This document shows, in pieces, positions 20,789-37,348 of a DNA stretch of 64,000 nucleotides; the first letter of the stretch is position 1, and the number at the start of each line of letters is the position of its first letter. A model generated the notes under the pieces. That model saw nothing but the letters and a program-made list of their open reading frames with translations, did not search any database and had not been told where the DNA came from. The translations under genes and the position numbers were made by a program. The stretch covers positions 5,582-69,581 of the forward strand of contig JAJPXB010000029.1 of the NCBI GenBank assembly GCA_021205695.1. Direction: 5' to 3'. Source of the DNA: Clostridiales bacterium (GTDB lineage Bacteria > Bacillota > Clostridia > Oscillospirales > Oscillospiraceae).

Positions 20789-20915
20789 TTCCGCATAATA
20801 TAATCAGGCAAAAATAGAGTACATCAATAACAGAGAACAGAATTTTGGGCTAGCTACGGGCATAATAACATATGACCGTTTCTGTTTCATATAAAGCGGA
20901 AAAACAATTTTTGTT

Positions 20916-21182
20916 GTGGCTCTGGTTTTATATTTTTTCATCTACTCCATGTTGTCTCCTGTTTTACAGGGCGTTCTGTTCATCGTCATGTGTGCAGGAA
21001 GCATTGTCGCCAGCATCGCCATTCTTCGCTATCTTGACCGCCTCAGCCTAGAGAGGCGAGACGCAGCGTTGAGAAGGGATTTGGTCAAACTTGCAGGTGC
21101 GGATGGAGAAAAGATATTCCGTGAAATTAAACGGAAAGAGGCAGAAGAGAAGGGCATGCGCAAGAAAACAAAAGAGAAATGA
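20916..21182 (+). CDS. Small hypothetical membrane protein (first ORF of the low-GC island)
   Basis: 88 aa with a GTG start (an ATG 11 codons in is an alternative). Two hydrophobic helices are followed by a Lys/Glu/Arg-rich tail. It is co-oriented with and 41 nt upstream of the next gene. Confidence 0.45.
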   Translation: MALVLYFFIYSMLSPVLQGVLFIVMCAGSIVASIAILRYLDRLSLERRDAALRRDLVKLAGADGEKIFREIKRKEAEEKGMRKKTKEK

Positions 21183-21223
21183 AATCATTCAACCAGGCTA
21201 TCTATCTATGAGGAGGAAGAAAA

Positions 21224-23446: not shown

Positions 23447-23543
23447 AGACCATTCCCCCAAAAAAGACGCCCAAAAGCAAGGCTCCCGAAAGCAGGCAAG
23501 GGCGAGATTAGAGGAACACTATAGAGCCCTTTTATCGGGGGCA

Positions 23544-23781
23544 GGAGGAAGCATATGAAGTGCCCCAACTGTGGAACAGAGAATCCGAAGACCGCTCAAT
23601 TTTGCAGGAAATGCGGATTCAATCTTGAGGGCAGGGTCTGCCCCAAATGCGGAACGCTTGTGCCAAAGGGCGCTCAATACTGTGGGGTGTGTGGAAGAAA
23701 ACTGAAGAAATCGTCGGGGAGAGGTCATAGGATCTGGAAAGTCGCCCTGGTTACTGTATTGTGCCTGGTGCTTGTGGTGGG
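23544..23781 (+). repeat. Copy 1 of duplicated RBS + double-ribbon + TM module
   Basis: Hand alignment to 27508-27745 gives 238 nt with no indels and 16 mismatches (~93% identity). The shared stretch starts at GGAGGAAGCATATG. Confidence 0.9.
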
Positions 23782-26700
23782 TGGCTTCAGCGTAGCGTGG
23801 AAATTCGTCTGGAGCGATGATGCACAGCTTGTGCAGGCTGCCGAAAATTATGCGGAGGTGAACGAGGCGCTGCTCGCCGTCACCACTGCGGACGGCTACG
23901 ACGACCTGACCACGGCGGAAAAGGCGGGGCAGGTACTCGCCGCCCTGGACGACCTGGCGGACGAGGGCAAGGTGCTGGCCGACTCCGTGGGGTACGACGA
24001 GGCCTACCCGCTCGTCTATTATTCCTATGCGGACGGCGCCTATGGCGGCGTGATGCTGGAGGAATTTGCGGAGGGAACCAGCGGCGTGGGCGAAAGCACC
24101 TACAATACCTCCATAAGCTACGTCGAAGGCGGCACAGCGGACATTGACCCCTGGCCGTCTGTTCCGACCTTTGCGATGGAGGGCTCTCCCTATGCGGACG
24201 ACCTCTCAGCGCTGATTGTATGTGATTTGGGGGAAGGATTCGATGACTATCTGGGGTTGATGCAATCGTTGCAATCCAGTTGGAATGAAGCATATCTGGA
24301 AACGACCCTGGTGGAGGAGGGAACCGTTGCCTTTTATCGGACTGGGCTTTCCGGCTACGATCTGGTGGTGATACAGGAGCACGGCATCATTTATAACAAT
24401 AATCCGGCTGTTGTACTCCAGGAAACGTCTGACACCTTACAAAAAATCCGTTACAGCATTGGCGCTACCGTCACAGAAGAGGAACGTGCGATATTGGAAG
24501 ATATTCAGAGCAATCGCACTGTGCTTTTACTGCTCGAGGACGACCAGTTTCATTTTCTTCTGCTGCCGGAATTCTTTTCCGATTATTACGCAGATGACGG
24601 GCTGGAGGACGCAATCGTTTGGATCGGCTGCTGCGATGGCTATCTCAACGACACATTGGTATCCGCCTTTGCAGACTGCGGTGCAAAGGCCGTCCTTGCC
24701 CCCACGGAAACGGTCAGCACAACGTACAATTTCCTGATGCAGGACGCTTTTGTGGATATGCTGTTGTACGGAAACACAGTGGAGGAGTCCCTTACCTTTG
24801 CCCAATCCCAATGGGGTTCGAACGACAGAGAGTTTAAGGAGGCCATCCTTGGCGTAGAGGACGATGACCCAGCGGAGGTTCGCATCTATTGCGGCGGCGA
24901 TGAAACCCTGGTCACGCTGACGGTGGAGGGGCAGGATGCGCTGAAGGGCATCTGCTCCGGCACGGTGATCGACGCAGCAGACAGCAGCGTGCCCATCGTC
25001 GGCGCGACGATAACCGTGACCGACGCAGACGGGACGGTCGCAGAGGCGACCACGGACGAGACCGGCGCATTTGAGATAAAGCTCTACTTGGGGACCTATA
25101 CCGTCCAGATCGAGATGGAGGGCTACCGGACCGTATCAGACGAGGTGACAATTGAGGCGGGCGAGGAAAACGCCATTCTGATCAGCCTGTCTGCGCTGCT
25201 CTCAGACGAGAGCGCCAGGGCAGCCTATCAGCAGTTCCTGGACAACGGGGAATACGCAGATAGAGTCGGCGAGGTGAGCGGCATTCAATATGCCATCTAC
25301 GATGTGACCGGAGACGGGATCAGCGAGCTTCTGCTGCACTGCTATTCCTCAGACGTAGGTGTTGATGGGACATATTATGTCTACAGCTACAATGGCGATG
25401 TATTTTTCATCGGAAGCTGTGAAAACGTTTACTGGGAGGGAGCGTATTATTCTGCCGAAAAAAATAACCTGGTCATCGTTGCAAACGGCGATTCTGACTG
25501 GATCTCCTATGAGTTCTATGATGTGACCGACGATGTGACCGACCAGTTGACGCTGACGTACGAAATGGGGCGCATATTTTACGAATCTGGCTCGGAGCCA
25601 GACACGGACGATGTCCTGGACGGCCACTTTTATATTGCGGACGCCGGAGTGATGTCCAGAGATGTCACAGAATCGGAATGGAACAGTCATATCAATGAAC
25701 TGACGGAGATCGTGTTTTCCGACCTGTCCGCCACGAACGATGATTTGCTTTATCAATATATCCCTGACGATGCATTGATATACAACGGGCATTCCTACTA
25801 TTATTTTGCTGATTATAGCCTGGAATGGGAAGACGCCAATGCGTATTGCGAGTCTCTTGGTGGGCATCTTGTGACGATTACTTCTGAAGAAGAGCAGAAT
25901 GCGGTTTACAATTATATCTCTGCACTGGCAGGAAATGTTGACATTTGGATTGGAATATCAGATTCTGATGAAGAAGGGAACTGGTCTACCTGGATAACCG
26001 GAGAAACAGTCACCTATACAAATTGGGGAAGCGGAGAGCCAGATGACTACTCCACAGGTCAAGATTACGGTGTAATTTGTTGCGGGACAAGGAATGGAAG
26101 TACCTATAACGTATTACCGGGTCAATGGGATGATGTGAATTCTATTAGCGATGAGGTAAACGGTAGTTTTATCTGTGAATGGGAATATTGTGCGGAGCAG
26201 AACAGCAACACCGACGATCTAACTGAAATTGAAGAGACCGACCTGTCGGACGTTGCCCATGGTACTTGCGGCGATGACCTGACATGGACCTATAGCTCCA
26301 GCGGCGTGCTGACCATTTCCGGCACAGGAGAGATGTGGGGGTGGAATCCTTCCAGGGAAACGAATTCGGCGTACACAATGACGGCGATCACCTATGAGGA
26401 GATTCCATGGTACGATTATAAAGACCAGATCACCTCAGTCGTTGTGGAGGATGGCGTCACTTCCATTGGAATCTGTGCCTTTTATGAGTGTACTAGCCTA
26501 GCCAGCATCTCCATTCCGACCAGTGTGACTATCCTTCACAGTCAGGCGTTTTTTGGCTGCACAAGTCTGGTCGAAGTGATTATTCCCGACAGTGTGACCA
26601 GTATAGACGACCAGGTATTCTACAATTGCATCAGTCTGACAAGCGTTGTGATCGGAAGCGGCGTGACAACAATCAGCTATGCCGCTTTCTATGGATGTAG

Positions 26701-27070
26701 CAGTTTGACAGATGTCTATTATGCGGGCAGCGAGTCGGAGTGGGCTTCTATTGATATCGCATCCAACAATGAATGCTTGACCGCCGCTGCAAGCGCCGAA
26801 CAGCAGCCGTTTTATGGAGTCTGGTGCGCGGCCACAAAGAAGAGCGCCGATGCGCAGAGCGTAGCCGAGCAACTGCGCGAGCAGGGCTTCGATGCGCAGG
26901 TTTGCCTGACCACCAACTGGGAGGGGCTGAACAGCGAGGCATACTATGTCGTCACAGCCGGGCGGTATGATACCGAAGCAGAGGCCAAGGCTGCTTTGGC
27001 GGAGGTGCAGGCCGTCGGCTATTCGTCTGCGTATGTGAAATATACAGGAGATTGGAGTGGGAACGGATGA
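23555..27070 (+). CDS. Double-zinc-ribbon/TM-anchored multidomain surface protein (CarboxypepD_reg-like, C-type lectin-like, BspA-type LRR, SPOR)
   Basis: 1171 aa. Ribbons are at aa 3-47 and the TM helix at aa ~59-80. GTVIDAADSS...YTVQIEMEGY spans aa ~466-545. A CTLD (WIGISD...EGNW, GEPDD, WDD, ICEWEY) spans aa ~741-878. LRRs (SIGICAFYECTSL...) span aa ~905-1070 and a SPOR-like domain spans aa ~1085-1163. Confidence 0.85.
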   Translation: MKCPNCGTENPKTAQFCRKCGFNLEGRVCPKCGTLVPKGAQYCGVCGRKLKKSSGRGHRIWKVALVTVLCLVLVVGGFSVAWKFVWSDDAQLVQAAENYAEVNEALLAVTTADGYDDLTTAEKAGQVLAALDDLADEGKVLADSVGYDEAYPLVYYSYADGAYGGVMLEEFAEGTSGVGESTYNTSISYVEGGTADIDPWPSVPTFAMEGSPYADDLSALIVCDLGEGFDDYLGLMQSLQSSWNEAYLETTLVEEGTVAFYRTGLSGYDLVVIQEHGIIYNNNPAVVLQETSDTLQKIRYSIGATVTEEERAILEDIQSNRTVLLLLEDDQFHFLLLPEFFSDYYADDGLEDAIVWIGCCDGYLNDTLVSAFADCGAKAVLAPTETVSTTYNFLMQDAFVDMLLYGNTVEESLTFAQSQWGSNDREFKEAILGVEDDDPAEVRIYCGGDETLVTLTVEGQDALKGICSGTVIDAADSSVPIVGATITVTDADGTVAEATTDETGAFEIKLYLGTYTVQIEMEGYRTVSDEVTIEAGEENAILISLSALLSDESARAAYQQFLDNGEYADRVGEVSGIQYAIYDVTGDGISELLLHCYSSDVGVDGTYYVYSYNGDVFFIGSCENVYWEGAYYSAEKNNLVIVANGDSDWISYEFYDVTDDVTDQLTLTYEMGRIFYESGSEPDTDDVLDGHFYIADAGVMSRDVTESEWNSHINELTEIVFSDLSATNDDLLYQYIPDDALIYNGHSYYYFADYSLEWEDANAYCESLGGHLVTITSEEEQNAVYNYISALAGNVDIWIGISDSDEEGNWSTWITGETVTYTNWGSGEPDDYSTGQDYGVICCGTRNGSTYNVLPGQWDDVNSISDEVNGSFICEWEYCAEQNSNTDDLTEIEETDLSDVAHGTCGDDLTWTYSSSGVLTISGTGEMWGWNPSRETNSAYTMTAITYEEIPWYDYKDQITSVVVEDGVTSIGICAFYECTSLASISIPTSVTILHSQAFFGCTSLVEVIIPDSVTSIDDQVFYNCISLTSVVIGSGVTTISYAAFYGCSSLTDVYYAGSESEWASIDIASNNECLTAAASAEQQPFYGVWCAATKKSADAQSVAEQLREQGFDAQVCLTTNWEGLNSEAYYVVTAGRYDTEAEAKAALAEVQAVGYSSAYVKYTGDWSGNG

Positions 27071-27306
27071 GTGAAAGACCAAATCAGGATGGGCGCCACA
27101 TAATGAAATGCCCAAATTGCAAAAATGAAATAAAGGACCACTGCAGGTTTTGCTATATATGTGGCTCCAGATTGTTCCGCGTTTGTACGTGGTGCGGTAC
27201 GCCGGCTGAGCCAGAAGCAATGTTTTGTAATAATTGTGGCCCCGGCTTACGGGATGATGGCAGAAACCCATGGATGTATGTTTTGAATGGTAAGGAGTTC
27301 CGATGA
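27067..27306 (+). CDS. Small soluble double-zinc-ribbon protein
   Basis: ATG 27067 overlaps the preceding stop (ATGA at 27067-27070). The two ribbons are CPNCKNEIKDHCRFCYICG and CTWCGTPAEPEAMFCNNCG. No TM helix. The track's TTG start at 27052 is an alternative. Confidence 0.65.
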   Translation: MSERPNQDGRHIMKCPNCKNEIKDHCRFCYICGSRLFRVCTWCGTPAEPEAMFCNNCGPGLRDDGRNPWMYVLNGKEFR

Positions 27307-27507
27307 CTTGCTTGCCAGCAGCCAGTTGAACTGTCTCACTGTTTTTCCACAATAGCCAGTCAGTATACGATGGGTCTGCACGCAAACGGTGCATAGATCT
27401 CGTTGCTTTTTAGCAGAGAGGGCAGGTTTGGTCAAATAGCAGAAGGCAATGGATGCGTGCAGGGAAAAGCGCGTGGACGGCTTTGTGTATATGCTTACAT
27501 GAGGGAT

Positions 27508-27745
27508 GGAGGAAGCATATGAAGTGCCCCAACTGTAGAACAGAGCAGCCGGAGACTGCGAAATTTTGCGGCAAATGCGGATTCAAGCTTGAGGGCAGGG
27601 TCTGCCCCAAATGTGGAACGCTTGCGCCGAAGGGCGCTCAATACTGTGGGGTGTGTGGAAGAAAACTGAAGAAATCGTCGGGGGGAGGTCATAGGATCTG
27701 GAAAGTCGCCCTGGCTATTGTATTGTGCCTGGTGCTTGTGGTGGG
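27508..27745 (+). repeat. Copy 2 of duplicated RBS + double-ribbon + TM module
   Basis: See 23544-23781. The offset is exactly 3964 nt. Confidence 0.9.
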
Positions 27746-30700
27746 AACCGGATTTATCGTTTGGGAACATTGGCAGTCGAACGCTGGAGAGGAATCCGCC
27801 TACGACAATCTGCTGATTTTGACCGACAAGTTTACCGACAGGGCGGTGACGGATGAGGACTCAGCGATTCTGGCGGCTCAGGACGCTGCGGAATCGCTAG
27901 GGTTGCAAAATGCCATGGAGGAGCTGGAACCGCTGAGTACCGCAGAGGCATACGGAGACTCCTATTACCGTCTACAGCAGTATTACCGGGGATACCCTGT
28001 GTATGGCAGAGCGGTCGTCGTGCTGGCCGATGAAAACGGTGAAGCGTTCACTCTGGTCGGGAATGTGGCGGACGTGGATGCAGATTTGAACTTTACGCCC
28101 TCTGTCACACAGACGGAGCTGGAGAAAAGCCTTTCGGCCTATGCGGAGGAGGAGCTGGAATTGAGCGGCGAGGTCTCTCTGGAGGAGGCCTCCGATGATG
28201 CGCTGGTCATCTATGACCTGTATGACGAGGAGACGCACCTGGCATACGAACTGTCCGCCTCGCTCGACGAGGAGTTGTACACGGTCGTCTTGGATGCCAA
28301 CGACGGGGAGGTGCTGGTGGCTTGCGAAACTCTGTCTAGTGCATCTATTACAGGGACAAATTCGTCTGGAACAGTCACAGTGAATGCCTCCGTGAGTGAT
28401 GAAAATGAAGGTACATATTTTCTTTATGACTCGGAACGTAAAATTAGCATTCTTGATTTAGATGGAACAACAAGTCAGAAAACCGTTGGTTGGAGCGGAA
28501 ATGGAAGAGGCGGTGATTCTTCGGACGCAGAAGATTCTACAAAAGCTATACTTGGAGAGCAGGTTTCTTCGACCGAGACAAATAGCGAGGGAGCTGCCAT
28601 TTTTTCGGATGATGCTATAAATTACCTAGATACTCTGTCAAAGATTTATGATACGTATGAAAACTGGGGAATTAATAGCTTGTACACCATTTATGCGAAT
28701 TACAGGGATGGCTTCGACAGTGGAATGAACGCTGTAGGTGGTGTGGTCACAGTAGATGGAACTACATTTGGTTATATCAGCGCTGGGTTAGTTACTGGGA
28801 CTTCGGATATTGATGCGTACGCTCATGAGTATGCCCATTATATTATGTATTCGCATATTACTTTGACATCCAACTACAGGAGTGCAATTGCAGAAGGCTT
28901 CGCTGATATATATGGCTGTTTGGTTGAGTGCGAAATAGAAGGGTGGGACGAACCAGATTGGAGTATTACAGGAGATAATATTAACGTGTATCGTGATATG
29001 GCGGAACCTACTGCTTCGGGAAATGCAGAATATTGGGATGGTGAAGAAGATTCCGAACATGAATACAACGAATCCACAATTATTTCTCATGCTGCTTACC
29101 TTATGTGGCGAGGAAAAGACAGTAAAATTGGCATAGGCCAAACATATGGTTCCTTATCAGTGGATGAGTTGGCAGAACTGTGGTATCGAGCTATGCTCAT
29201 GTTTCCCACTGACTGCGATTATAATCATGTGTGCCAGCTGGTAGAACTGGCAGCTGAGCATATGTCCCTTTCTGATCAACAGAAAGAATGTATTTCGTGG
29301 GCGTTTTATCAGGTTGGAATTGCAGAAACCTATACTCTTGATGCAGATTTCAATCTAACTTTGTATGATACAAATGGAGACAGTTATGCGGAGTATTATG
29401 CTTCTGTCGAGGTAATCCTTTCGGAGGAAACACTCTCAGAAAATACTGCCATTGTCTACGAACCTGGTGTGGATGGAATACTTTCTTTTCATCTTGACAG
29501 TGGAAAAGCATATAAAGTTACATTAATTGACAATCAGGATGATACAAAAAAGTTTTTATTCTATGCATATATCACTGATAAAAACGGATACGATACGCTG
29601 ACACTTTACACAGACTTTGGCACCGTAAAGACCGGAACCCTATCCGGCACCATCGTGTCCGCATCCGACAGCTCGACAGCCATCGGCGGTGCGTCCGTCA
29701 CGGTTCTGGATGGGGATACCGTAGTAGAAGAACTGACCACAGATGAAGACGGCGCATTTGAGGCAGAGGTTTCCCCAGGAACCTATACCGTCCAAATCGA
29801 AATGGACGGCTATGATGCAGTGGAGCTGACGGTTTCTGTGGATCTGCGGGAGGATGTGGACGTGGGAGAGATCACCATGACCTCATCCTCGAACGAAAAG
29901 GTGCTGCGGGCAAAATTGAATGAGCTGATTGAAACCTATGGAATCTTTGCGTCCGGACAGAGCGGAACGGTATCGAACTATGTGGTTCCCAGTTGGCTCA
30001 ACCCGACAGGTATCCTCTCCGCAACCATCCTGGATCTGGACGCGGACGGAAGCCTGGAGCTGCAAGTCTGTCGCACGGAAAAATGGGAATATGGCGGATA
30101 TACATATTATAAGGTGCTGATGGAGGTTTACGAAGCGGATACGCAGGCTGCGTATCTGGCGACCTATATGTGGTTTGATCCATACGGCACCAGCGCCGAT
30201 GTATATGACGACACTTATGTCTATCCACTTACATATGTGTCGCTGACGGAGACAGAGAACAATCAGATTCTGGCAACAGTTAATGCGGCGCAGACAGAGA
30301 ACGGGTATTACCTTGTATGCGAGTACTATATGCAGGGGGTTCTCGGGGACGGCGGATACGGAGCGACCTGGGTGCTGGAATACCAGAACGAAACCCTACA
30401 GTATGTGTGCAGTTTGGAAAACGGTGACGTGGGCAGCAGCGTGGATACCGGTTTTGCCTACGAAGAATTTGACAACGAGGATCCTGCCCCGTTCCCCACC
30501 AAGATAACCATGTATTATGAACCGGAGGTGACCGACCTCAAACAATATTATTATTATACAGACTTGGAGGAGTGGGACTGGACTCCAGGAGCAATTAAAA
30601 GAGAGTTTTTTGCGAAATATGGCCTCAAATTTGCCTCGACAGAGACGGAGTTCGTATTTAGCTATGACAACTTCGGCGGCTATGGAGACTACTATGGATT

Positions 30701-31382
30701 CAGCGGAACGACCTCCGGTGACGCCGACACGGAGTTGGAATTCAGACTTGTCATCAACACAACAGCCAGCGATTATGAATCCGGCACATTCACGTTTGAA
30801 GAGAAACTGACGCGCGGGAATAGCCTGCTGGACAGCCACGGCGATGGCGAGGCTGAAGGCGACAGCGAGGCTGAAACATCGGGCAATGCGGATGTCAGCG
30901 AGATCGTGCTCGACACGTCGTACGCAAACGACTATGAATTCGGCAATATCTGCGCCTATGATTCCGACGGAAACCTGGTCTGGTCCTATGAGACCGGCTC
31001 CTATCCCGCAACGGAGCTCGGCGCAATCAGTGAGATCGGGCTGAGAGACGGATGCTACTACTTTGTGGAGAGCGGCACCGTTGTCGCCATGGATGCGGCA
31101 ACGGGTGAGATCCTGTGGAGGAACAGCGATTTTGGGGGCTCTGGAGCGTCGGCGTTTGCGGAGGACTGCATCTGTCTGGCAGGGTATTACGGTCCGGACT
31201 TTTACGCCGTGTCCTATGACGGGACGACGCTCTGCACGATAAACAGCTTTGGCACCGAATACTATTGGGCGTCCAATGTCACGATATCGGGCAATACGGC
31301 GCTCGTGTCCCTGAACGATGGCTATTATGAAGCCCGGATAAACCTGGAAACATGGGAGTATACCATTTCCGACGTGGGCTGA
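27519..31382 (+). CDS. Double-zinc-ribbon/TM-anchored thermolysin-like (M4) metalloprotease with CarboxypepD_reg-like and PQQ-like repeat domains
   Basis: The start is ATG 27519 after GGAGG; the track start 27453 is over-extended. 1287 aa with ribbons + TM as in 23555. FTP/PepSY-like propeptide segments are present. HEYAH is at 28824-28838 and AIAEGFADIYG has its Glu at 28893-28895. A CarboxypepD_reg-like domain spans aa ~707-787. C-terminal repeats resemble GNLVWSYETG...ATGEILWRN. Confidence 0.85.
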   Translation: MKCPNCRTEQPETAKFCGKCGFKLEGRVCPKCGTLAPKGAQYCGVCGRKLKKSSGGGHRIWKVALAIVLCLVLVVGTGFIVWEHWQSNAGEESAYDNLLILTDKFTDRAVTDEDSAILAAQDAAESLGLQNAMEELEPLSTAEAYGDSYYRLQQYYRGYPVYGRAVVVLADENGEAFTLVGNVADVDADLNFTPSVTQTELEKSLSAYAEEELELSGEVSLEEASDDALVIYDLYDEETHLAYELSASLDEELYTVVLDANDGEVLVACETLSSASITGTNSSGTVTVNASVSDENEGTYFLYDSERKISILDLDGTTSQKTVGWSGNGRGGDSSDAEDSTKAILGEQVSSTETNSEGAAIFSDDAINYLDTLSKIYDTYENWGINSLYTIYANYRDGFDSGMNAVGGVVTVDGTTFGYISAGLVTGTSDIDAYAHEYAHYIMYSHITLTSNYRSAIAEGFADIYGCLVECEIEGWDEPDWSITGDNINVYRDMAEPTASGNAEYWDGEEDSEHEYNESTIISHAAYLMWRGKDSKIGIGQTYGSLSVDELAELWYRAMLMFPTDCDYNHVCQLVELAAEHMSLSDQQKECISWAFYQVGIAETYTLDADFNLTLYDTNGDSYAEYYASVEVILSEETLSENTAIVYEPGVDGILSFHLDSGKAYKVTLIDNQDDTKKFLFYAYITDKNGYDTLTLYTDFGTVKTGTLSGTIVSASDSSTAIGGASVTVLDGDTVVEELTTDEDGAFEAEVSPGTYTVQIEMDGYDAVELTVSVDLREDVDVGEITMTSSSNEKVLRAKLNELIETYGIFASGQSGTVSNYVVPSWLNPTGILSATILDLDADGSLELQVCRTEKWEYGGYTYYKVLMEVYEADTQAAYLATYMWFDPYGTSADVYDDTYVYPLTYVSLTETENNQILATVNAAQTENGYYLVCEYYMQGVLGDGGYGATWVLEYQNETLQYVCSLENGDVGSSVDTGFAYEEFDNEDPAPFPTKITMYYEPEVTDLKQYYYYTDLEEWDWTPGAIKREFFAKYGLKFASTETEFVFSYDNFGGYGDYYGFSGTTSGDADTELEFRLVINTTASDYESGTFTFEEKLTRGNSLLDSHGDGEAEGDSEAETSGNADVSEIVLDTSYANDYEFGNICAYDSDGNLVWSYETGSYPATELGAISEIGLRDGCYYFVESGTVVAMDAATGEILWRNSDFGGSGASAFAEDCICLAGYYGPDFYAVSYDGTTLCTINSFGTEYYWASNVTISGNTALVSLNDGYYEARINLETWEYTISDVG

Positions 31383-31609
31383 CACCGACTGCGCGCGGCT
31401 GTGGGACTGCTGCCTCACCATTTACATTTTGCGGGATTAAGCGGAAGCAGAAGGGGGGAGTTTTCCCATGCCATGTTTACAATCATAGCAGAACGACCTG
31501 CGCTGCCTGAAGGACACCGTTCCGGAGACGGACGCAGGTGGGATCGAATATCTCGGGGCAGAATTCTGAGATGGCTGCCGACAATTTTTAGAACAGGAGA
31601 GAAAGACAA

Positions 31610-32500
31610 ATGGGTATTTTCGACAGATTTGGAAAGAAAATTTCCGACACAGGACGGGATGCGATTGAAACGGGAAAGGGGTATGCCAATATATCCAAAT
31701 ACAACGGGATGATCTCGGAGAACAACGAGAAAATAAGACATCTCATGCAGGAAATTGGCGAGAAGTACTGTCAATTGCATATGGAAGACGCAGAACCGAC
31801 ATTAAGAACACTGGTCAGCGCAGTGGCTGATATGCAGGCGCAAAACCGGGAGCTGGAGAATGAAATCCTGGATTTGCGAGGGCTGAAAAAGTGCCCATTT
31901 TGCGGGGAAATTATATCAAAAAGTATCGCCTATTGCGATAAATGCGGTAATCGGGTTTTGTCGGAAGATGTAGTGGTTTGCCCGAACCCGAAGTGCAGGG
32001 AGCTTTTGCCTGCAGGAACCCTGTTCTGCTTAAAATGCGGTAAACGCGTGGTCAGCGATACACCGGCCAAAACGCCGCAGCTGCAAAAGTGTGCGAGATG
32101 CGGCGCTTCGTTGGTGGACGGAGCCAGGTTTTGCTCTGTCTGCAGCGAACCTGTCCTTGGGCAGAAGGCGGAGGAACAGCCGCCTGCCCTGCCGCGCAAG
32201 TGCCCCAAGTGCGAGAGCCCCGTGTCTGAGGGGGACGTGTTTTGCCCCGTTTGTGGCACGAAAGTGATCGGCGGGGAATCTACGCAGGTACAGCCCCTTA
32301 CGGGGGCAGCGGATGCAGGCGAGGAGACTGCTCAGAAACAGGAGACGTCTTCCGGGAAACAGGCCAACGTGCCTGATTACGCACAGGTAAACGACATTGT
32401 GAATCAGATTGCGTCAGAGACAGTGGCTGTCTGCCCCCGGTGCGGAAGCAAGCTGGAGCCGGACAGCGCATTCTGCTCCGAGTGCGGCCTTAAGCTGTAG
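31610..32500 (+). CDS. Soluble protein with N-terminal coiled-coil-like segment and five zinc ribbons
   Basis: 296 aa with no TM helix. The ribbons are CPFC..CDKC, CPNPKC..CLKC, CARC..CSVC, CPKC..CPVC and CPRC..CSEC. Confidence 0.85.
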   Translation: MGIFDRFGKKISDTGRDAIETGKGYANISKYNGMISENNEKIRHLMQEIGEKYCQLHMEDAEPTLRTLVSAVADMQAQNRELENEILDLRGLKKCPFCGEIISKSIAYCDKCGNRVLSEDVVVCPNPKCRELLPAGTLFCLKCGKRVVSDTPAKTPQLQKCARCGASLVDGARFCSVCSEPVLGQKAEEQPPALPRKCPKCESPVSEGDVFCPVCGTKVIGGESTQVQPLTGAADAGEETAQKQETSSGKQANVPDYAQVNDIVNQIASETVAVCPRCGSKLEPDSAFCSECGLKL

Positions 32501-32616
32501 ACGGCGGCTGAACAGAAGCCGGATACGGCAGAGCAGGCCGCAGAAGTGAAAGAGAAAGAAGCTCAAGCGGCTTGCCTGCCTGTTTGCATCCGTGGCGCGG
32601 GAAAGGAAAAAATACT

Positions 32617-34257
32617 ATGATCTGCCCAAACTGTAAAAGAGAAGTGTCGGATTCTGCCAAATTTTGTCCGAAATGCGGCGAAAAAATAGAAAAAGAAGTG
32701 CTGTGCCCTTCGTGCGGAAAACCAGTGTCCAAGCAGATGACATACTGCCCATGGTGTAGCAACCTATTGCAGGAGAGCCAGCAGAAAACGGCCTTCTGTA
32801 TGACGTGCGGGAAACCGGTGCCTCCTGGGGAGACATGTTGCTCCGACTGCCAGAAAAAGAAGAGGCGGAAAAAACATTTGCGTACAGCGATAATCGTGGT
32901 ATGCATTATCCTGCTGCTGGTTGTCGGAATTGTAGGCGGCTTCTATCTGTATGGACAACCGCTGCCGTTTGAAATAGGAGCGCAACAGACCGAGGATGAG
33001 ATGGACGAGGAAGCCGCATCAGAGGAAGCCGCGACGGACAGTGAAGACGGGGACGCGGCATCTGCCACTGACGCAGCTGATGCCGACAGCGAGGAGCAGA
33101 TGGCGGAGGCGACGGTTGAGGAGGCACCTGAGGAGACGCAGCTGACCACGGAGCAGTGCGTGCAAATCTACGGTGACTACTATAGTGATGCCGGGTTACA
33201 GTCACAGCTACAATACATAGCGTATGACAGCAATGGGAATATCACGAACACAGAGGAAATGGGCGTGGTGTCCGTCAGCGTGGCTGACCTGAATGATGAC
33301 GGGACATTAGAGATGCTTTTGGTTCAGGTCAGTGGGGAGAACCAGGCAGGGCTCTGCATGGAAATCTACGGGATAGAAGATGGAGCAGCCGCCCTGCAGG
33401 CGTCGCTGGAGGATTTGTATCCGGAGGCTCTGGAGGCCTCTAGTGGCAGGAGAACGGACGTTGTCCAGGTCGGAGAGTCGATCCTGGTCGCCATATATGG
33501 AGACGGCGTGGCTGTGGCGTATCTCTATCAGCTCGATGAAAACGCACTGGAGCTGGTGTGGAGTGCGCAGACTGGGGACGAATGGGCAGAGAGTGAACTG
33601 GAGGAACTGACAAACAGCTGGTGCGCAGATGTACTTGCGGACTATCTGTCCACGGCGGGATCCAAATATGATGATGTAGACTATGGGAACGGGGAGCTGC
33701 TGTGCTCGTTTATTGGGAGCGGAGTCGGCAGCCAGAGTAAAACGGAGCAGGGGATCACAAATGTGTATGATTACACAGGCACCTTGGATAATGCAGAGGT
33801 GAACGAGTTTGATTTTCCGGCCGGCACAGTGGAATATAACGGACACCATTATATGGTCTGTCTGGAGACGACCGACTGGGAGAGCGCTGAACTTGCATGC
33901 GAGGAGATGGGCGGGCATTTGGTGACAATTGCCAACGCCGAAGAAAATGACTACGTGTATACATTGGCTTGCGCCTACAGTACAGAGCTGGCCTTCCTGA
34001 CCGGCGGGACTGACCATCGACAGGAAGGCACATTTGAGTGGATTACAGGGGAGCCATTTGAGTACACCTGCTGGGGCTATCTAAATGAACCGGACAACTA
34101 TCGCGGCTATAAGGAGCAGGATTATATTACCCTGTTGACATTTGACCAATCTGGCGAATATAAGGACGACAGCGGGGAATCCTGGGGGATTCACGCATCA
34201 GAATGGGACGATAAGGACGGAGGAGATAACCCCTATATCTGCGAGTGGGATTTCTGA
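32617..34257 (+). CDS. Triple-zinc-ribbon/TM-anchored protein with C-terminal C-type lectin-like domain
   Basis: The start is ATG 32617 (MICPNC...). Three ribbons, KKKRRKKHLR and a TM helix are followed by an acidic linker. A CTLD spans aa ~404-546 (HLVTIANAEEN, EGTFEWITGE, NEPDN, WDD, ICEWDF). Confidence 0.85.
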   Translation: MICPNCKREVSDSAKFCPKCGEKIEKEVLCPSCGKPVSKQMTYCPWCSNLLQESQQKTAFCMTCGKPVPPGETCCSDCQKKKRRKKHLRTAIIVVCIILLLVVGIVGGFYLYGQPLPFEIGAQQTEDEMDEEAASEEAATDSEDGDAASATDAADADSEEQMAEATVEEAPEETQLTTEQCVQIYGDYYSDAGLQSQLQYIAYDSNGNITNTEEMGVVSVSVADLNDDGTLEMLLVQVSGENQAGLCMEIYGIEDGAAALQASLEDLYPEALEASSGRRTDVVQVGESILVAIYGDGVAVAYLYQLDENALELVWSAQTGDEWAESELEELTNSWCADVLADYLSTAGSKYDDVDYGNGELLCSFIGSGVGSQSKTEQGITNVYDYTGTLDNAEVNEFDFPAGTVEYNGHHYMVCLETTDWESAELACEEMGGHLVTIANAEENDYVYTLACAYSTELAFLTGGTDHRQEGTFEWITGEPFEYTCWGYLNEPDNYRGYKEQDYITLLTFDQSGEYKDDSGESWGIHASEWDDKDGGDNPYICEWDF

Positions 34258-34279
34258 TTCGAGACAGAGGTGTTGAGAG

Positions 34280-36007
34280 ATGGGAGAACAAGGGAGAGAG
34301 GAGCGATCGAAGGTTGACCAGGAACAGCGGCAGAGAAAGACAAGGTGGTATGCTATCCCCTGCGCCGTAGTCGCAGTTTGTCTCTGCTTGATTGCAATCG
34401 TCCTGGTTCTCGGCCCTGCCGACACGGAAGCGGAGGATATCGGAACCGCAGATGAGCAGACAGAGGAGGATGCTGCGGACGGGAGACAGACCGACAGCGA
34501 TGTGGAGGCGGAGGCCTCGACGTTTGCCATCTCCATCGGAGAGGAAGATCTTACCCTGATGGTGACGGCGCAGAAGCAGCTCACAGCTGTTGTTTCCGAT
34601 AAGAACGGGGACGAGGTGCCAGACAGCGTGCCCGTCACATGGGCCAGCTCTAATCCGGAGGTGGTCTCCGTCTCGGATGACGGAACGATTACCGCTCTGG
34701 CGGAGGGGACGGCACAGATAACAGCGAGCATTTCCGACGGGGAGACTGCATCGCTGTCAGTGACGGTGCTCCCGCTGAATGTGACGGAGAAGACCGTGTT
34801 TGTCCAGCCGGGGGATGTGCTGACCATCAGCGAACTGGGGCTTCTTCCGGAGGAAACGGAGTGGACAGATTTTCAGTGGTCTTGCTCTGACGAGGAGGTG
34901 GCCGCTGTCTCAGCGGGTGAAATCACCATTTTGAGCGACGGAGAGGCGGAGATTTGTGGCAGGGGAGATATTGCGCGCATCTCCTGCACCGTGACGACCT
35001 GCTTTGGCGGCAAACTCATCGCCCATCGGGGACTGAACACCGAGGCGCCGGAGAACACTGTGCCTGCCTTCGAGCTGGCGGGACAGGCGGGCGCCTGGGG
35101 AATAGAGACGGATATCGCCTCGACCGCTGATGGAGTATTGGTCTGTCTTCATGACAGCACCATAGACGCCATGACAGACGGAAGCGGCGAGGTGAGCGAC
35201 TTTACCTATGAGGAATTGATGCAGTACCATATCGATGCAGGAAGCAACGTTGACCAATATCAGGATCTGACCATCCCGACCTTCCAGGAGTATCTGGAGA
35301 TTTGCAGGGAATACGGCGCAGTTGCCGTGATCGAGCTGAAAACCCTGGCCTCTACAGCGGAGGTGCGGACGGTCTATGAGACGATCTGTGCCTGTGGAAT
35401 GGAGGAGCAATGTATTGTCATCAGCTTCCAGTATTCCTATCTCCAGGCGCTGCGCAGCTATACCCGCGACATACCGGTTCAGCTGGTGGTCAATGCTGCC
35501 AGCAAGACGAACATTTCAGAGGCGGCCACACTTGAAAACAGCGGGATCGATTTCAAAACAGGGAGTGAAGAGCTCATTGCCTATGCCCACTCCCTCCATT
35601 GCACGACGAATGTGTGGACAGTAGACACCGCCTCGGCCCAGGAGACCTGGCGAGCGGCGGGGATCGACTTCATCACGGCGAATACGGCGGAGTGGTCCGA
35701 TGAGGCAGCGTCTGACGATGGAGATGAAAACGGTTTAAATGCGGAAACAAAGGACAGGGAGTCGGTCACGCTGTTGCTTGCCTCTGATTATCAGGCAGAG
35801 GACGGTTGGCCTGCGCCCCCGGAGACGCGGACCTCCCTGCTGGACGCTGTCTATGGAGACGGCTATGTGCTGGACAACGCCATCCTGTGTGGCGATTACA
35901 CAAATCTGGAAAAAAGTACAATTATGAGACAAGCCCGGACGATTCGATTGCCGAGATTAAGTCTATCTTTTCGGAATTTGACCCGGGACTGGACACGGAA
36001 ATCATGA
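34280..36007 (+). CDS. Membrane-anchored Big_2 + glycerophosphodiester phosphodiesterase (GDPD) protein; 3' end probably frameshifted
   Basis: The TM helix is at aa ~24-45. A Big_2-like segment (VTWASSNPEVVSVSDDGTITALAEGTAQITA) follows. GDPD motifs are IAHRGLNTEAPENTVPAF...GIETDI...DGVLVCLHD. The reading frame appears to switch at the A6 run at 35910-35915. Confidence 0.8.
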   Translation: MGEQGREERSKVDQEQRQRKTRWYAIPCAVVAVCLCLIAIVLVLGPADTEAEDIGTADEQTEEDAADGRQTDSDVEAEASTFAISIGEEDLTLMVTAQKQLTAVVSDKNGDEVPDSVPVTWASSNPEVVSVSDDGTITALAEGTAQITASISDGETASLSVTVLPLNVTEKTVFVQPGDVLTISELGLLPEETEWTDFQWSCSDEEVAAVSAGEITILSDGEAEICGRGDIARISCTVTTCFGGKLIAHRGLNTEAPENTVPAFELAGQAGAWGIETDIASTADGVLVCLHDSTIDAMTDGSGEVSDFTYEELMQYHIDAGSNVDQYQDLTIPTFQEYLEICREYGAVAVIELKTLASTAEVRTVYETICACGMEEQCIVISFQYSYLQALRSYTRDIPVQLVVNAASKTNISEAATLENSGIDFKTGSEELIAYAHSLHCTTNVWTVDTASAQETWRAAGIDFITANTAEWSDEAASDDGDENGLNAETKDRESVTLLLASDYQAEDGWPAPPETRTSLLDAVYGDGYVLDNAILCGDYTNLEKSTIMRQARTIRLPRLSLSFRNLTRDWTRKS

Positions 36008-36139
36008 TTTGGCACTGGCCCCGTGGGCACAGAACGGGAAAAAGAAAAAGCTGTGTCGGAAGAAAAGACGCTAAAACGGACAAGCAACAGAGTCAGACCT
36101 CTGCGAATGACAGTATATGAACGAATCTGTAGATGAAAT

Positions 36140-36910
36140 ATGGAGGGGAATGGGCCAATGCACGGGAGAGAAATCAAAGTAGAAATTGAACAGACGATGC
36201 AAAGTGCATTTTTCAGCAGAGGTCATCTACGCCCTGTATACAGCAAAAAAGAGTCGAAAAGGATGAAACTGAAAGAGGCGTATGCTCTGGCGTTTGGTGC
36301 CTGTTTACGAATAGATGATATGTTCGCAAACGGATGCACCTATGAGGAATATGCTTGTGAGATGGACCGGCATCAGTTCGGACCTCCTGCGCAGGATCTG
36401 CCCCGAACGATGGGCTTTGCCAGGTGGAACGAAAAGGTCAGTATCCGCGTTCCATATCCTCCGCTTGATGTCACCTGTTGCCTATATGTGACGTTCAGAA
36501 TATCTGAATCGGAGAAAAAGTCGCTGCCGAAAATGAAACCGTCACGGCCTGAAGAGAGGCCGCTTCCCAAAAAAGATAAAGAGTGGATATGCCCTGCCTG
36601 TGGAGCCACTTCTTCTATTTCGACGTTCTGCTCTAATTGTGGGAGAAAAAGGGAAAGCAAAGTCGTTGCAAAGTCAAATATCTGTTATTTTGATGCGAAG
36701 GGTGAAATGTGCGAGAAAGAAAACGCCACAACATTCCTTATCACAGAATATGATAAAGACGGCAACCTCATAAATTCTGTTCATGGCTTATACAGGGAAT
36801 GGGTTTGCTGCTGTTGTGGACACAGGAATTCTGCTGATGTGCGTTTCTGTGTTTATTGTGGGAAAAGAAGGGATCATAGGGAAGGGTTTTATGATGAATC
36901 GAAACGATGA
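36140..36910 (+). CDS. Soluble hypothetical protein with two C-terminal zinc ribbons
   Basis: 256 aa. The ribbons are CPACGATSSISTFCSNCG and CCCCGHRNSADVRFCVYCG. No TM helix. The start codon is uncertain because several in-frame ATGs are available. Confidence 0.7.
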   Translation: MEGNGPMHGREIKVEIEQTMQSAFFSRGHLRPVYSKKESKRMKLKEAYALAFGACLRIDDMFANGCTYEEYACEMDRHQFGPPAQDLPRTMGFARWNEKVSIRVPYPPLDVTCCLYVTFRISESEKKSLPKMKPSRPEERPLPKKDKEWICPACGATSSISTFCSNCGRKRESKVVAKSNICYFDAKGEMCEKENATTFLITEYDKDGNLINSVHGLYREWVCCCCGHRNSADVRFCVYCGKRRDHREGFYDESKR

Positions 36911-37298: not shown

Positions 37299-37348
37299 GT
37301 TTATGAGATGATTCCTGACTGAGGCAGTTAGCCTGCCCGGATCCACTC

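What the first reader, a model, noticed from the sequence alone, without database searches (positions are those of the whole stretch)
25775..34254. Two bacterial C-type lectin-like domains with EPD...WDD variants of the EPN...WND Ca2+/sugar-binding motif
The two domains are aa ~741-878 of the 23555 gene (nt 25775-26188) and aa ~404-546 of the 32617 gene (nt 33826-34254). Both show the animal-type CTLD signature. In the first: YNGHSYYYF / ..CESLGGHLVTITSEEE.. / WIGISDSDEEGNWSTWITGE / NWGSGEPDD / WDD / ICEWEY. In the second: YNGHHYMVC / ..CEEMGGHLVTIANAEEN.. / EGTFEWITGE / NEPDN / WDD / ICEWDF. In mannose-binding-protein-type lectins the EPN tripeptide and the later WND ligate Ca2+ and select the sugar. 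Here both copies carry EPD (26036-26044 and 34087-34095) and WDD (26126-26134 and 34204-34212). The two copies are not similar at the nucleotide level, so they are old paralogs or independent acquisitions. Canonical CTLDs are uncommon in bacteria. If this organism is host-associated (not shown by the sequence), outward-facing CTLDs would be candidates for host- or microbial-glycan binding.
Basis: partly seen in the sequence, partly recalled or inferred. Interest (0 to 1): 0.65.

Follow-up and report, generated by a model that had tools for sequence, protein, structure and literature searches.

The report
Bacterial surface C-type lectin domains

Summary
Both ORFs exist, and EPD and WDD lie at the stated coordinates. 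Both domains pass Pfam Lectin_C (9e-14 and 8e-10). Both give confident AlphaFold models (pLDDT 95 and 92) that match sugar-binding CRDs in the PDB: CD23, SRCL, mincle, DC-SIGN and MBP (TM about 0.75-0.85).

Alignment to rat MBP-A puts EPD on E185-P186-N187 and WDD on W204-N205-D206.

In 178 related bacterial domains, Q193 and D205 go together (E/N 73, Q/D 57, mixed 9). Both window domains belong to an EPD-Q-WDD subfamily. It has a 10-17 residue hairpin inserted next to the site, with a conserved aromatic residue, and it lacks the C2-C3 disulfide.

Canonical CTLDs are not rare in bacteria. A word-limited search found 3159 relatives, mostly from Clostridia, fused to SLH, dockerin, Big_2, LRR or zinc-ribbon/TM anchors.

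The most likely function is outward-facing, Ca2+-dependent glycan binding. The ligand is unknown and host binding is not shown. EPD and WDD are each known singly in invertebrate lectins. I rate this a new variant of a known kind, of moderate interest.

The parts
23555..27070 (+). Gene P1 (1171 aa). Modular type-II membrane surface protein: two zinc ribbons, TM helix, unknown ectodomain, CarboxypepD_reg, unknown region, CTLD, BspA-type LRR_5, SPOR.
   Evidence: ORF; Pfam; RBS AGGAGG before the ATG; singleton 90% cluster.
23558..23695 (+). P1 N-terminal double Cys4 zinc ribbon (aa 2-47), inferred cytoplasmic.
   Evidence: Pfam Zn_Ribbon_1 and DZR. The basic stretch RKLKKSSGRGHR precedes the TM helix.
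23732..23812 (+). P1 single TM helix (aa 60-86, IWKVALVTVLCLVLVVGGFSVAWKFVW).
   Evidence: Hydropathy scan; coordinates.
24956..25189 (+). P1 CarboxypepD_reg / prealbumin-like beta-sandwich spacer (aa 468-545).
   Evidence: Pfam 6e-16. 42% identical to the same module in the neighbouring gene at 27516.
25775..26188 (+). CTLD copy 1 (P1 aa 741-878).
   Evidence: Lectin_C 9e-14. AF2 pLDDT 95.1, pTM 0.89. Foldseek to CD23, SRCL, mincle, DC-SIGN: TM 0.73-0.85, rmsd about 2 A.
26036..26044 (+). EPD of copy 1 (E828-P829-D830), aligned to MBP-A E185-P186-N187. The next residue, D831, aligns to D188 (Ca site 1).
26060..26068 (+). Q836-D837-Y838 of copy 1, aligned to MBP-A E193-D194-C195. The Glu ligand is replaced by Gln, and the C2 cysteine is replaced by Tyr.
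   Evidence: hmmalign and MAFFT. PDB alignments to CEL-I (AEDYG) and CD23 (GEDC) are printed; MBP-A is also a hit there, over the same stretch, without a printed alignment. Coordinates.
26081..26122 (+). Extra hairpin between beta3 and beta4 of copy 1 (CGTRNGSTYNVLPG). It carries the subfamily motif S/N-G-x-x-[YWF]-x-[IV]-x-x-G.
   Evidence: Alignments; short strands in the AF2 model.
26126..26134 (+). WDD of copy 1 (W858-D859-D860), on strand beta4, aligned to MBP-A W204-N205-D206.
26417..26728 (+). P1 BspA-type leucine-rich repeats (LRR_5, aa 955-1058).
   Evidence: Pfam 5.9e-27; weak NCBIfam match to the HupY/LrrG adhesin.
26810..27037 (+). P1 C-terminal SPOR domain (aa 1086-1161), a peptidoglycan-binding module.
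   Evidence: Pfam 6.5e-9.
32617..34257 (+). Gene P2 (546 aa): three or more zinc ribbons, TM helix, acidic linker and unknown ectodomain, C-terminal CTLD.
   Evidence: ORF; Pfam; RBS; same gene in source-run contig L008.
32620..32853 (+). P2 N-terminal zinc ribbons (aa 2-79), inferred cytoplasmic. KKKRRKKH follows, before the TM helix.
   Evidence: Pfam DZR, Zn_ribbon_3, DZR_2, DUF2116; sequence.
32878..32952 (+). P2 single TM helix (aa 88-112).
   Evidence: Hydropathy scan; coordinates.
33826..34254 (+). CTLD copy 2 (P2 aa 404-546); it ends at the protein's C-terminus.
   Evidence: Lectin_C 8e-10. AF2 pLDDT 92.3. Foldseek to aggrecan, SRCL, mincle, CD23, DC-SIGNR, MBP-C CRDs.
34087..34095 (+). 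EPD of copy 2 (E491-P492-D493). The 79%-identical orthologue P0097 has QPD here.
34117..34125 (+). Q501-D502-Y503 of copy 2, aligned to MBP-A E193-D194-C195.
34138..34200 (+). Longer inserted beta-hairpin of copy 2 (TFDQSGEYKDDSGESWGIHAS). This insertion is why Pfam aligns only the first 75 model positions.
   Evidence: (extra strands at 108-113 and 119-122).
34204..34212 (+). WDD of copy 2 (W530-D531-D532), on strand beta4.

Best explanation
P1 and P2 are type-II (N-in, C-out) membrane-anchored surface proteins of an uncultured spore-forming Clostridia bacterium, probably Oscillospiraceae. Each displays a canonical long-form C-type lectin domain outside the cell.

The domains belong to a large bacterial CTLD family, and within it to a distinct subfamily. 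This subfamily keeps the C1-C4 disulfide and all five side-chain positions of the principal Ca2+ site (site 2), but with different chemistry: E-P-D, Q, and W-D-D instead of E-P-N, E, and W-N-D. It has lost the C2-C3 disulfide. It has also gained a 10-17 residue beta-hairpin between beta3 and beta4, beside the site, with a conserved aromatic residue.

All five side chains can still give an oxygen to Ca2+. The most likely mechanism is therefore the classical one: a bound Ca2+ ligates two vicinal sugar hydroxyls, and the flanking side chains hydrogen-bond them. What differs is the donor/acceptor pattern. Pair 193/205 is inverted (Q/D for E/N), and pair 185/187 is doubly acidic (E/D). The hairpin adds a wall to the site. 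The sugar preference should therefore differ from the mannose-type and galactose-type rules.

In P1 the CTLD works together with BspA-type LRRs (an adhesin module) and a C-terminal SPOR domain (peptidoglycan binding). In P2 it is the only recognisable head.

Shown: the fold, family membership, motif positions by sequence alignment, topology signals, subfamily conservation, and the coupling of Q193 with D205. Inferred: Ca2+ binding, sugar binding and specificity. The ligand and any host involvement are unknown.
For: Family and fold: Pfam Lectin_C above cut-off for both copies. PDB sequence hits reach 1e-19 for single CRDs. AF2 pLDDT is 95.1 and 92.3. Foldseek probability is 1.00 to sugar-binding CRDs, with TM 0.73-0.86.

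Site mapping: the MBP-A sequence was verified against PDB 1msb/2msb. Two alignment methods put E88/D90, Q96, D97 and W118-D119-D120 of copy 1 on E185/N187, E193, D194 and W204-N205-D206, and likewise for copy 2. HMMER alignments to PDB CEL-I and CD23 agree. WDD lies on predicted strand beta4, and Q-D-Y leads into beta3.

Site-1 ligands (D63, E67, D/N91, D97) are also present in both copies.

Subfamily: 40 sampled domains share [EQN]-P-D ... Q ... S-G-x-G-[YWF]-x-[IV]-x2-G-[QE]-W-D-D. The motif table gives EPD/Q/WDD 29 and EPN/E/WND 33, among others.

Coupling of 193 and 205: E/N 73, Q/D 57, E/D 6, Q/N 3 (Fisher 4e-28). In a broader multi-CTLD sample the counts are 388, 32, 21 and 25.

Outward display: zinc ribbons, basic residues and a single TM helix precede the ectodomain. 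Subfamily relatives are fused to SLH, dockerin, choline-binding repeats, Big_2, LRR_5 or zinc-ribbon/TM anchors.

Precedent: EPD-type invertebrate lectins still bind mannose or galactose in a Ca2+-dependent way.
Against: There are no experimental data for any member of this bacterial family; I found none in the searchable literature.

I could not read the model coordinates. The site geometry was therefore not measured, and the mapping rests on sequence alignment plus secondary-structure register.

The site would carry four acidic side chains instead of three. With E and D both as acceptors in pair 185/187, the textbook hydrogen-bond scheme cannot be satisfied, so weak or no sugar binding is possible.

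Many CTLDs with intact-looking sites bind proteins, lipids or crystals rather than sugars.

Site-1 ligands are kept in only about half of the subfamily.

Copy 2 lacks the WIGL tryptophan (it has FLTG).

The Q/D and E/N groups are at most 56% identical. The coupling could therefore reflect a few old events rather than repeated selection.
Confidence: 0.6

Rival explanations
1. The CTLDs are ligand-binding scaffolds for something other than a carbohydrate, such as a protein, a lipid or a mineral surface. This is the case for many animal CTLDs (snake-venom CTL-like proteins, NK receptors, type II antifreeze proteins, lithostathine). The acidic cluster would then be structural, or would bind a cation only.
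For: The literal sugar motifs EPN/QPD and WND are not met. Pair 185/187 has two acceptors, which does not fit the canonical hydrogen-bond scheme. Foldseek hits also include the non-lectin CTLDs lithostathine and aggrecan-tenascin. P1 carries LRRs, which are typical protein-binding modules.
Against: All five site-2 positions keep oxygen-donor side chains and are nearly invariant across the subfamily. This is the pattern of Ca2+-site retention, whereas non-lectin CTLDs usually lose these residues. The best sequence and fold matches are sugar-binding CRDs. EPD lectins in molluscs bind sugars.
Confidence: 0.2
2. The domains are lectins whose target is the bacterium's own envelope: cell-wall polysaccharide, capsule, or spore or septal glycan. 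They would hold or position the protein in the wall rather than bind host or foreign glycans.
For: P1 ends in a SPOR domain, a peptidoglycan binder. The organism encodes sporulation functions nearby, such as a GerM-type Germane domain. The gene array encodes wall-active enzymes on the same anchor type: an M4 peptidase and a GDPD phosphodiesterase, which could act on teichoic-acid-like polymers.
Against: In relatives the CTLD sits together with dedicated wall anchors (SLH, choline-binding repeats) or with dockerin. That argues it is the functional head, not the anchor. In P2 it is distal, at the C-terminus of a membrane-anchored chain. No direct evidence supports either view.
Confidence: 0.15
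3. The domains are recent acquisitions from an animal host by horizontal transfer, which would explain their 'animal-type' look.
For: The array lies in a lower-GC stretch next to a tRNA-Leu gene and transposase remnants. The best PDB matches are animal proteins, because no bacterial canonical CTLD appears among the solved structures returned.
Against: Identity to animal CRDs is only 20-31%. Identity to bacterial metagenome and MAG proteins is 40-79%. The bacterial family has its own signatures (GGHLVTITSxEEQ, WVTGE, ICEWD) and thousands of members. Island-like transfer between bacteria is possible, but direct transfer from animals is not indicated.
Confidence: 0.03

Closest known systems
Mannose-binding protein A / DC-SIGN / CD23 / SRCL type carbohydrate-recognition domains (Pfam Lectin_C, PF00059)
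   Same: Same fold (TM 0.73-0.86, rmsd about 2 A to several). Both have the long-loop region, the C1-C4 cysteines, Ca2+ site-2 ligand positions all occupied by oxygen-donor side chains, and site-1 ligands present.
   Different: The window domains have EPD for EPN, Gln for Glu193 and Asp for Asn205. They have no C2-C3 disulfide and a 10-17 residue hairpin inserted between beta3 and beta4. They sit on bacterial membrane proteins. Identity is only 20-31%.
Invertebrate C-type lectins with non-canonical motifs (AiCTL-7 EPD/WSD, AiLec EPD/WND, CfLec-2/3 EPD, MyCLF EPN/WDD, TgCTL-1 QPN/WDD)
   Same: EPD or WDD occurs singly at the same motif positions. EPD lectins there keep Ca2+-dependent mannose or galactose binding (PMC12842671).
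   Different: The review does not list the combination EPD plus WDD, and it does not discuss the Glu193 position. The animal proteins are secreted immune lectins with the usual disulfides. I did not check whether the WDD molluscan lectins also carry Gln at position 193.
Bacterial 'C-type lectin domain-containing' / 'lectin-like' proteins of Clostridia MAGs (NCBI automatic annotation)
   Same: Same family: 40-79% identity, shared signatures, and surface-anchoring partner domains.
   Different: These are annotation labels only; I found no functional or structural study. The window proteins add the zinc-ribbon/TM anchor plus the LRR_5 and SPOR combination. P1 is a singleton at 90% identity.
Galactose-type QPD switch of C-type lectins (e.g. 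CEL-I, ASGPR, MGL)
   Same: The logic is the same: an amide/carboxylate exchange within one pair of Ca2+ ligands. In QPD lectins it is E185Q with N187D. Here it is E193Q with N205D, in the other pair.
   Different: The exchange is in the second pair, and in the window copies it is combined with a doubly acidic first pair. Its effect on specificity is untested. That the EPN-to-QPD switch changes specificity is established knowledge (Drickamer 1992; Kolatkar and Weis 1996), cited here from memory.
Compact bacterial CTLDs of intimin / invasin
   Same: Members of the CTLD superfamily found on bacterial surface adhesins.
   Different: According to Zelensky and Gready 2005, recalled rather than tested here, those lack the long-loop region and the Ca2+ site and are not matched by Pfam Lectin_C. 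The window domains have the full long loop and do match Lectin_C.

Membership tests
C-type lectin-like domain, canonical long form (Pfam Lectin_C PF00059) | Significant match to the family HMM above the curated cut-off | tested here: met
   52.6 and 39.9 bits against a cut-off of 22.6. Copy 2 aligns to model positions 3-75 only, because of its insertion.
C-type lectin-like domain, canonical long form (Pfam Lectin_C PF00059) | Double-loop alpha/beta fold with two helices, antiparallel sheets and a long-loop region | tested here: met
   AF2 pLDDT 95.1 and 92.3, with the order beta-alpha-alpha-beta...beta3-beta4-beta5. Foldseek probability 1.00 to more than 500 CTLD chains.
C-type lectin-like domain, canonical long form (Pfam Lectin_C PF00059) | C1-C4 disulfide cysteines (helix alpha1 to strand beta5) | tested here: met
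   C765/C874 in P1 and C428/C542 in P2 align with the MBP-A cysteines. Actual bond formation is not testable here.
C-type lectin-like domain, canonical long form (Pfam Lectin_C PF00059) | C2-C3 disulfide (start of beta3 to the loop after beta4) | tested here: not met
   Tyr replaces C2 (Y838 and Y503), and there is no Cys after WDD. CEL-I also has Tyr at the C2 position.
C-type lectin-like domain, canonical long form (Pfam Lectin_C PF00059) | WIGL hydrophobic core motif | tested here: inconclusive
   Copy 1 has WIGI. Copy 2 has FLTG, and its orthologue P0097 has FLLG.
Ca2+-dependent carbohydrate-recognition domain (true C-type lectin, MBP type) | EPN or QPD tripeptide at positions 185-187 | tested here: not met
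   EPD in both copies. The orthologue P0097 has QPD.
Ca2+-dependent carbohydrate-recognition domain (true C-type lectin, MBP type) | Glu at position 193 and WND at positions 204-206 | tested here: not met
   Gln at 193 and WDD at 204-206 in both copies. All of these side chains are still possible oxygen donors.
Ca2+-dependent carbohydrate-recognition domain (true C-type lectin, MBP type) | The five site-2 ligands converge on one point in three dimensions | not testable with these tools
   Model coordinates are not exposed (one search shows no model files). Only sequence register and secondary structure are available.
Ca2+-dependent carbohydrate-recognition domain (true C-type lectin, MBP type) | Ca2+-dependent sugar binding | not testable with these tools
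   Needs the recombinant protein, ITC and glycan arrays.
BspA-type LRR surface adhesins (LRR_5) | LRR_5 repeats on an extracytoplasmic protein | tested here: met
   PF13306 5.9e-27 at P1 aa 955-1058. The weak HupY/LrrG match is far below its cut-off, so P1 is not a member of that equivalog.
SPOR peptidoglycan-binding domain proteins | SPOR domain HMM match | tested here: met
   PF05036 6.5e-9, 36.4 bits against a cut-off of 21.

The most novel reading that the evidence does not exclude
The coupled exchange Glu193-to-Gln with Asn205-to-Asp is a second amide/carboxylate specificity switch of the C-type lectin Ca2+ site, the mirror of the classical EPN/QPD switch. It would be used by a large, unstudied clade of bacterial surface lectins. 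Together with the EPD variant and an aromatic-bearing hairpin, it would define a new sugar-recognition mode, for example for diols of different stereochemistry or for acidic or amino sugars. Gut Clostridia would use this mode to bind host, dietary or microbial glycans.
Probability: 0.25. Interest if true: 0.7.

Novelty: new variant of a known kind. Interest (0 to 1): 0.45.

Why it matters
C-type lectins are textbook animal glycan receptors, and the EPN/QPD rule is the standard way to predict their sugar preference. This window shows that gut-type Clostridia carry many canonical CTLDs on their surfaces. It also shows that a coherent subfamily has rewired the second ligand pair (Q193/D205), often along with the first (EPD), and has added a hairpin wall beside the site.

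If these domains bind glycans, they are an uncharted class of microbial adhesins or carbohydrate-binding modules. They would also give a natural test of how the donor/acceptor pattern around the Ca2+ sets specificity. If they do not bind glycans, they show how far the site can drift while the fold is kept.

The practical lesson holds either way. Motif-based specificity calls (EPN means mannose, QPD means galactose) should not be transferred to these bacterial domains.

Tried and rejected
1. Finding the source organism. The GTDB genome scan found only one distant LRR match, in a Hadza-gut Clostridia MAG. The exact-protein look-up found P1 and leuA 'not on record'. The run index gave nothing for the CTLD region and only coded, uninformative labels for the gltX-leuA region. 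Taxonomy therefore rests on names in the 90% clusters: Clostridiales bacterium MAGs and Candidatus Onthomonas sp., Oscillospiraceae.

2. The exhaustive HMMER search was dominated by giant multi-CTLD proteins and carries no taxonomy. It was useful only for the family size (76,753 cluster representatives) and for a second motif table.

3. I looked for model coordinates to measure the Ca2+ site and found none available.

4. Eight literature searches (plus reading in 47, 48, 71, 72) found no study of canonical bacterial CTLDs. The phrase 'bacterial C-type lectin' in PMC8092209 refers to LecB, which has a different fold.

5. NCBIfam gave no specific family for P1 or P2.

6. The promoter and terminator scans were not enriched over shuffles, so I make no operon claim.

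7. I tested whether the Q/D swap arose many times. The NJ/Fitch analysis gives 16 changes against 42 for shuffled labels. However, the closest Q/D-E/N pair is only 56% identical, so the number of independent events stays uncertain.

8. Recent transfer from animals is rejected; see the rival explanations.

Full report
OBSERVATION. Both ORFs are real. The first runs 23555-27070 (+, 1171 aa) and the second 32617-34257 (+, 546 aa). A longer TTG start at 32572 is possible for the second, but less likely. ATG 23555 has AGGAGG 7 nt upstream, and ATG 32617 has AAGGA about 10 nt upstream. EPD and WDD lie exactly at 26036-26044 / 26126-26134 and 34087-34095 / 34204-34212. The copies are 35% identical as protein (E 3e-22) with no DNA similarity.

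ARE THEY C-TYPE LECTIN DOMAINS? Yes.
- Pfam Lectin_C scores 52.6 bits (9e-14, nearly the whole model) for copy 1. It scores 39.9 bits (8e-10, first 75 of 107 positions) for copy 2. The cut-off is 22.6.
- phmmer against PDB sequences finds 191 and 137 CTLD chains. They are led by PLA2R, DEC-205, the mannose receptors, SRCL/CL-P1, CD23 and DC-SIGN.
- AlphaFold2 with 56-sequence alignments gives pLDDT 95.1 / pTM 0.89 for copy 1 and pLDDT 92.3 / pTM 0.87 for copy 2.
- Foldseek matches both models to sugar-binding CRDs: CD23, SRCL 2ox9, mincle, MR-CRD4, MGL, ASGR, langerin, DC-SIGN(R), MBP-C and SP-D. Probability is 1.00, TM 0.73-0.86 and rmsd often about 2 A.

DO EPD AND WDD SIT IN Ca2+ SITE 2? 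It matches 1msb/2msb at 113 of 113 residues, which gives the numbering E185-P186-N187, E193-D194-C195 and W204-N205-D206.
- hmmalign to a family profile and MAFFT L-INS-i agree on the following for copy 1 (domain numbering): E88-P89-D90 = E185-P186-N187, D91 = D188, Q96-D97-Y98 = E193-D194-C195, and W118-D119-D120 = W204-N205-D206. Copy 2 gives the same mapping with Q98 and W127-D128-D129.
- Independent HMMER alignments of the C-terminal half to PDB chains of CEL-I (…QPDNWNNAEDYG…) and CD23 (…EPNNRSQGEDC…) place Q96 on the ligand Glu.
- In the models WDD is on strand beta4 and Q-D-Y leads into beta3, as in known CRDs.
The site has three changes: N187D, E193Q and N205D.
- The identity of the five MBP-A ligands (E185, N187, E193, N205, D206) is established knowledge (Weis, Drickamer and Hendrickson 1992), not something I tested.
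- I could not read model coordinates, so no distances were measured.

THE FAMILY AROUND THEM. A single-sequence search found 16 relatives. A profile search limited by shared words found 3159 proteins at E<1e-6.
- Many carry two CTLDs in tandem.
- Partner domains include Big_2, SLH, dockerin, LRR_5, choline-binding repeats, YARHG and N-terminal zinc ribbons.
- The exhaustive HMMER search counts 76,753 cluster representatives for the whole superfamily, animals included.

A COUPLED SWAP. I extracted 201 domains from the 128 retrieved proteins plus the two window proteins and tabulated the site columns.
- The commonest combinations are EPN/E/WND 33, EPD/Q/WDD 29, QPD/E/WND 21, EPN/Q/WDD 12, QPD/Q/WDD 8 and NPD/Q/WDD 6.
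- Among 178 near-complete domains the 193/205 pair is E/N in 73, Q/D in 57, E/D in 6 and Q/N in 3. The odds ratio is 231 and Fisher p is 4e-28, uncorrected for relatedness.
- In the broader sample of 1259 domains from giant multi-CTLD proteins the counts are 388, 32, 21 and 25.
- On a neighbour-joining tree built without the site columns, the Q/D versus E/N character needs 16 changes. Shuffled labels need 42.
- The closest Q/D-E/N pair is only 56% identical. The states are therefore old, and the number of independent events is uncertain.
- Chemically, this swap is the counterpart, in the second ligand pair, of the well-known EPN-to-QPD exchange in the first pair.

THE SUBFAMILY OF THE WINDOW COPIES. 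Forty sampled domains have Q/WDD together with a long beta3-beta4 segment (19-27 residues between the start of beta3 and the W of WDD; relatives without the insertion have about 9-17 by the same count).
- They share [GN]-[EQN]-P-D-x3-8-Q-x-[Y]-x-[V]-[IL]-…-S-G-x-G-[YWF]-x-[IV]-x2-G-[QE]-W-D-D. The hairpin position of the aromatic holds Tyr in 23 and Trp in 9 of the 40.
- Tyr replaces the C2 cysteine, and no C3 cysteine follows. The C1-C4 cysteines are kept.
- Both window copies also keep the site-1 ligands (D63, E67, D/N91, D97), which only about half of the subfamily does.
- Copy 2's nearest relative, P0097, is 79% identical and also has a zinc-ribbon architecture. It has QPD where the window has EPD, so position 185 toggles between close orthologues.

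PROTEIN CONTEXT.
- P1 consists of two Cys4 zinc ribbons (aa 2-47), a basic stretch, one TM helix (60-86), about 380 aa with no family match, CarboxypepD_reg (468-545), about 190 aa unknown, the CTLD (741-878), BspA-type LRR_5 (955-1058) and SPOR (1086-1161).
- P2 consists of three or more zinc ribbons (2-79), KKKRRKKH, a TM helix (88-112), an acidic linker and unknown region, and the CTLD at the very C-terminus.
- The positive-inside rule puts the ribbons in the cytoplasm and the CTLDs outside. This is inference from sequence.
- Relatives of the same subfamily are fused to SLH, dockerin, choline-binding or Big_2 modules, which fits surface display.

GENOMIC CONTEXT.
- The two genes lie in a same-strand array, 21224-36910. 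Five of its genes start with zinc ribbons plus a TM helix and then carry different ectodomains: an unknown one, CTLD/LRR/SPOR, an M4 thermolysin-like peptidase with a PQQ beta-propeller, the second CTLD, and, on a TM helix without ribbons, Big_2 plus GDPD. Two soluble multi-ribbon proteins complete the array.
- A similar array flanks the copy-1-like CTLD P0002 in another metagenome contig.
- GC in the array is 0.46-0.56, against 0.60-0.68 in the flanks.
- On the left are a T-box leader and leuA. On the right are a split transposase (37894-38701) and tRNA-Leu(GAG).
- The flanks carry gltX, a GerM-like gene, a two-component system, a MatE transporter and a GH3 enzyme, so this is chromosomal DNA of a spore-forming Firmicute.
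- Names in the 90% clusters point to 'Clostridiales bacterium' MAGs and Candidatus Onthomonas (Oscillospiraceae).
- Contigs from two public runs are identical to the window. They break at the repeat shared by the 5' ends of P1 and gene 27516, and in the IS remnant.

MECHANISM. The explanation I commit to is outward-facing, Ca2+-dependent glycan-binding heads.
- All five site-2 side chains can still ligate Ca2+ through oxygen.
- The sugar-facing hydrogen-bond pattern is altered. Pair 193/205 is inverted, and pair 185/187 is doubly acidic.
- An aromatic-bearing hairpin flanks the site.
- The EPN-means-mannose and QPD-means-galactose rules should therefore not be applied here.
- In molluscs, EPD lectins still bind mannose or galactose with Ca2+ (PMC12842671).
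- Shown: the fold, family membership, alignment of the site, topology signals, and subfamily conservation and coupling.
- Inferred: Ca2+ binding, sugar binding and altered specificity.
- Unknown: the ligand, and whether the target is host, dietary, foreign-microbial or the cell's own wall.
- The rival explanations (a non-carbohydrate ligand, the cell's own envelope as target, recent transfer from animals) are given with their tests in the Rival explanations section.

COMPARISON AND NOVELTY. These are members of Pfam Lectin_C. They fail the literal motif definition of a mannose-type or galactose-type CRD and lack one of the two conserved disulfides. EPD and WDD each have precedents in invertebrate lectins. 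I found no paper on canonical bacterial CTLDs, on the EPD-Q-WDD combination, or on the E193Q/N205D coupling. The searchable library is incomplete, so this is absence of evidence only. I rate it a new variant of a known kind. Interest is moderate (0.45): the domains are real and belong to a large uncharacterised clade, but the family is widespread and nothing about function is shown.

Noticed in passing
window 21224-36910 (+): An array of seven same-strand genes. Five start with Cys4 zinc ribbons plus one TM helix and then carry different ectodomains: an unknown 740-aa protein; CTLD/LRR_5/SPOR; an M4 peptidase with CarboxypepD_reg and PQQ_2; the second CTLD; and Big_2+GDPD, which has a TM helix but no ribbon. 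Two are soluble multi-ribbon proteins (31610-32500, 36140-36910). A comparable array flanks a related CTLD in locus L003 (1127-8321). The role of the cytoplasmic ribbons is unknown.
   Followed up: partly
window ~20800-39600: The array sits in a lower-GC stretch (0.46-0.56, against 0.60-0.68 in the flanks). It is bounded on the left by leuA. On the right are a transposase split into two ORFs (37894-38265 and 38288-38701, with an integrase-core motif HRLICPYTPRHNGKVERSH) and tRNA-Leu(GAG) at 39481-39567 (-). This looks like a genomic island. Source-run contigs end at 38030, inside the IS remnant, which suggests the element is repeated in the genome.
   Followed up: partly
window 23555-23781 vs 27516-27745: The 5' ends of P1 and the M4-peptidase gene (zinc ribbons and TM helix) are 91-97% identical in DNA over 92-152 nt. 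The proteins are 46% identical over the first ~210 aa and 42% identical over the CarboxypepD_reg module. Short-read contigs of the source runs break exactly there (23695 / 27654). This points to recent recombination or gene conversion between the array members.
   Followed up: partly
window 27052-27306 (+): A small ORF (84 aa, TTG start) overlaps the end of P1 and encodes further CxxC zinc-ribbon motifs (MKCPNCKNEIKDHCRFCYICG…CTWCG…FCNNCG). It may be a remnant of another array member or a short ribbon-only gene.
   Followed up: no
locus L002 134-1306 (protein P0097): This is the closest relative of copy 2: 79% identical in the CTLD, with the same zinc-ribbon plus CTLD architecture. It has QPD where the window has EPD, while Q and WDD are unchanged. 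Position 185 therefore flips between E and Q in close orthologues.
   Followed up: partly
CTLD copy 1 residue E817 (window 26003-26005) and copy 2 equivalent: The Glu of the motif W-[VI]-T-G-E is invariant in all 56 aligned bacterial domains (E77 in domain numbering). MBP-A has Y-V-T-G-G at the same place. Its role was not examined.
   Followed up: no
window 18709-18953 (+): A T-box leader (Rfam RF00230, 96 bits) lies directly upstream of leuA (19016-20737).
   Followed up: no
window 39988-41286 (+) and 41305-42000 (+): Two ORFs have no Pfam match. The first has a lipoprotein-like start (…LLLLSGCSG) and is very rich in T, D, E and S. They precede a GH3-family gene (42017-45067) in which the C-terminal GH3 domain comes before the N-terminal one in the sequence.
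   Followed up: no
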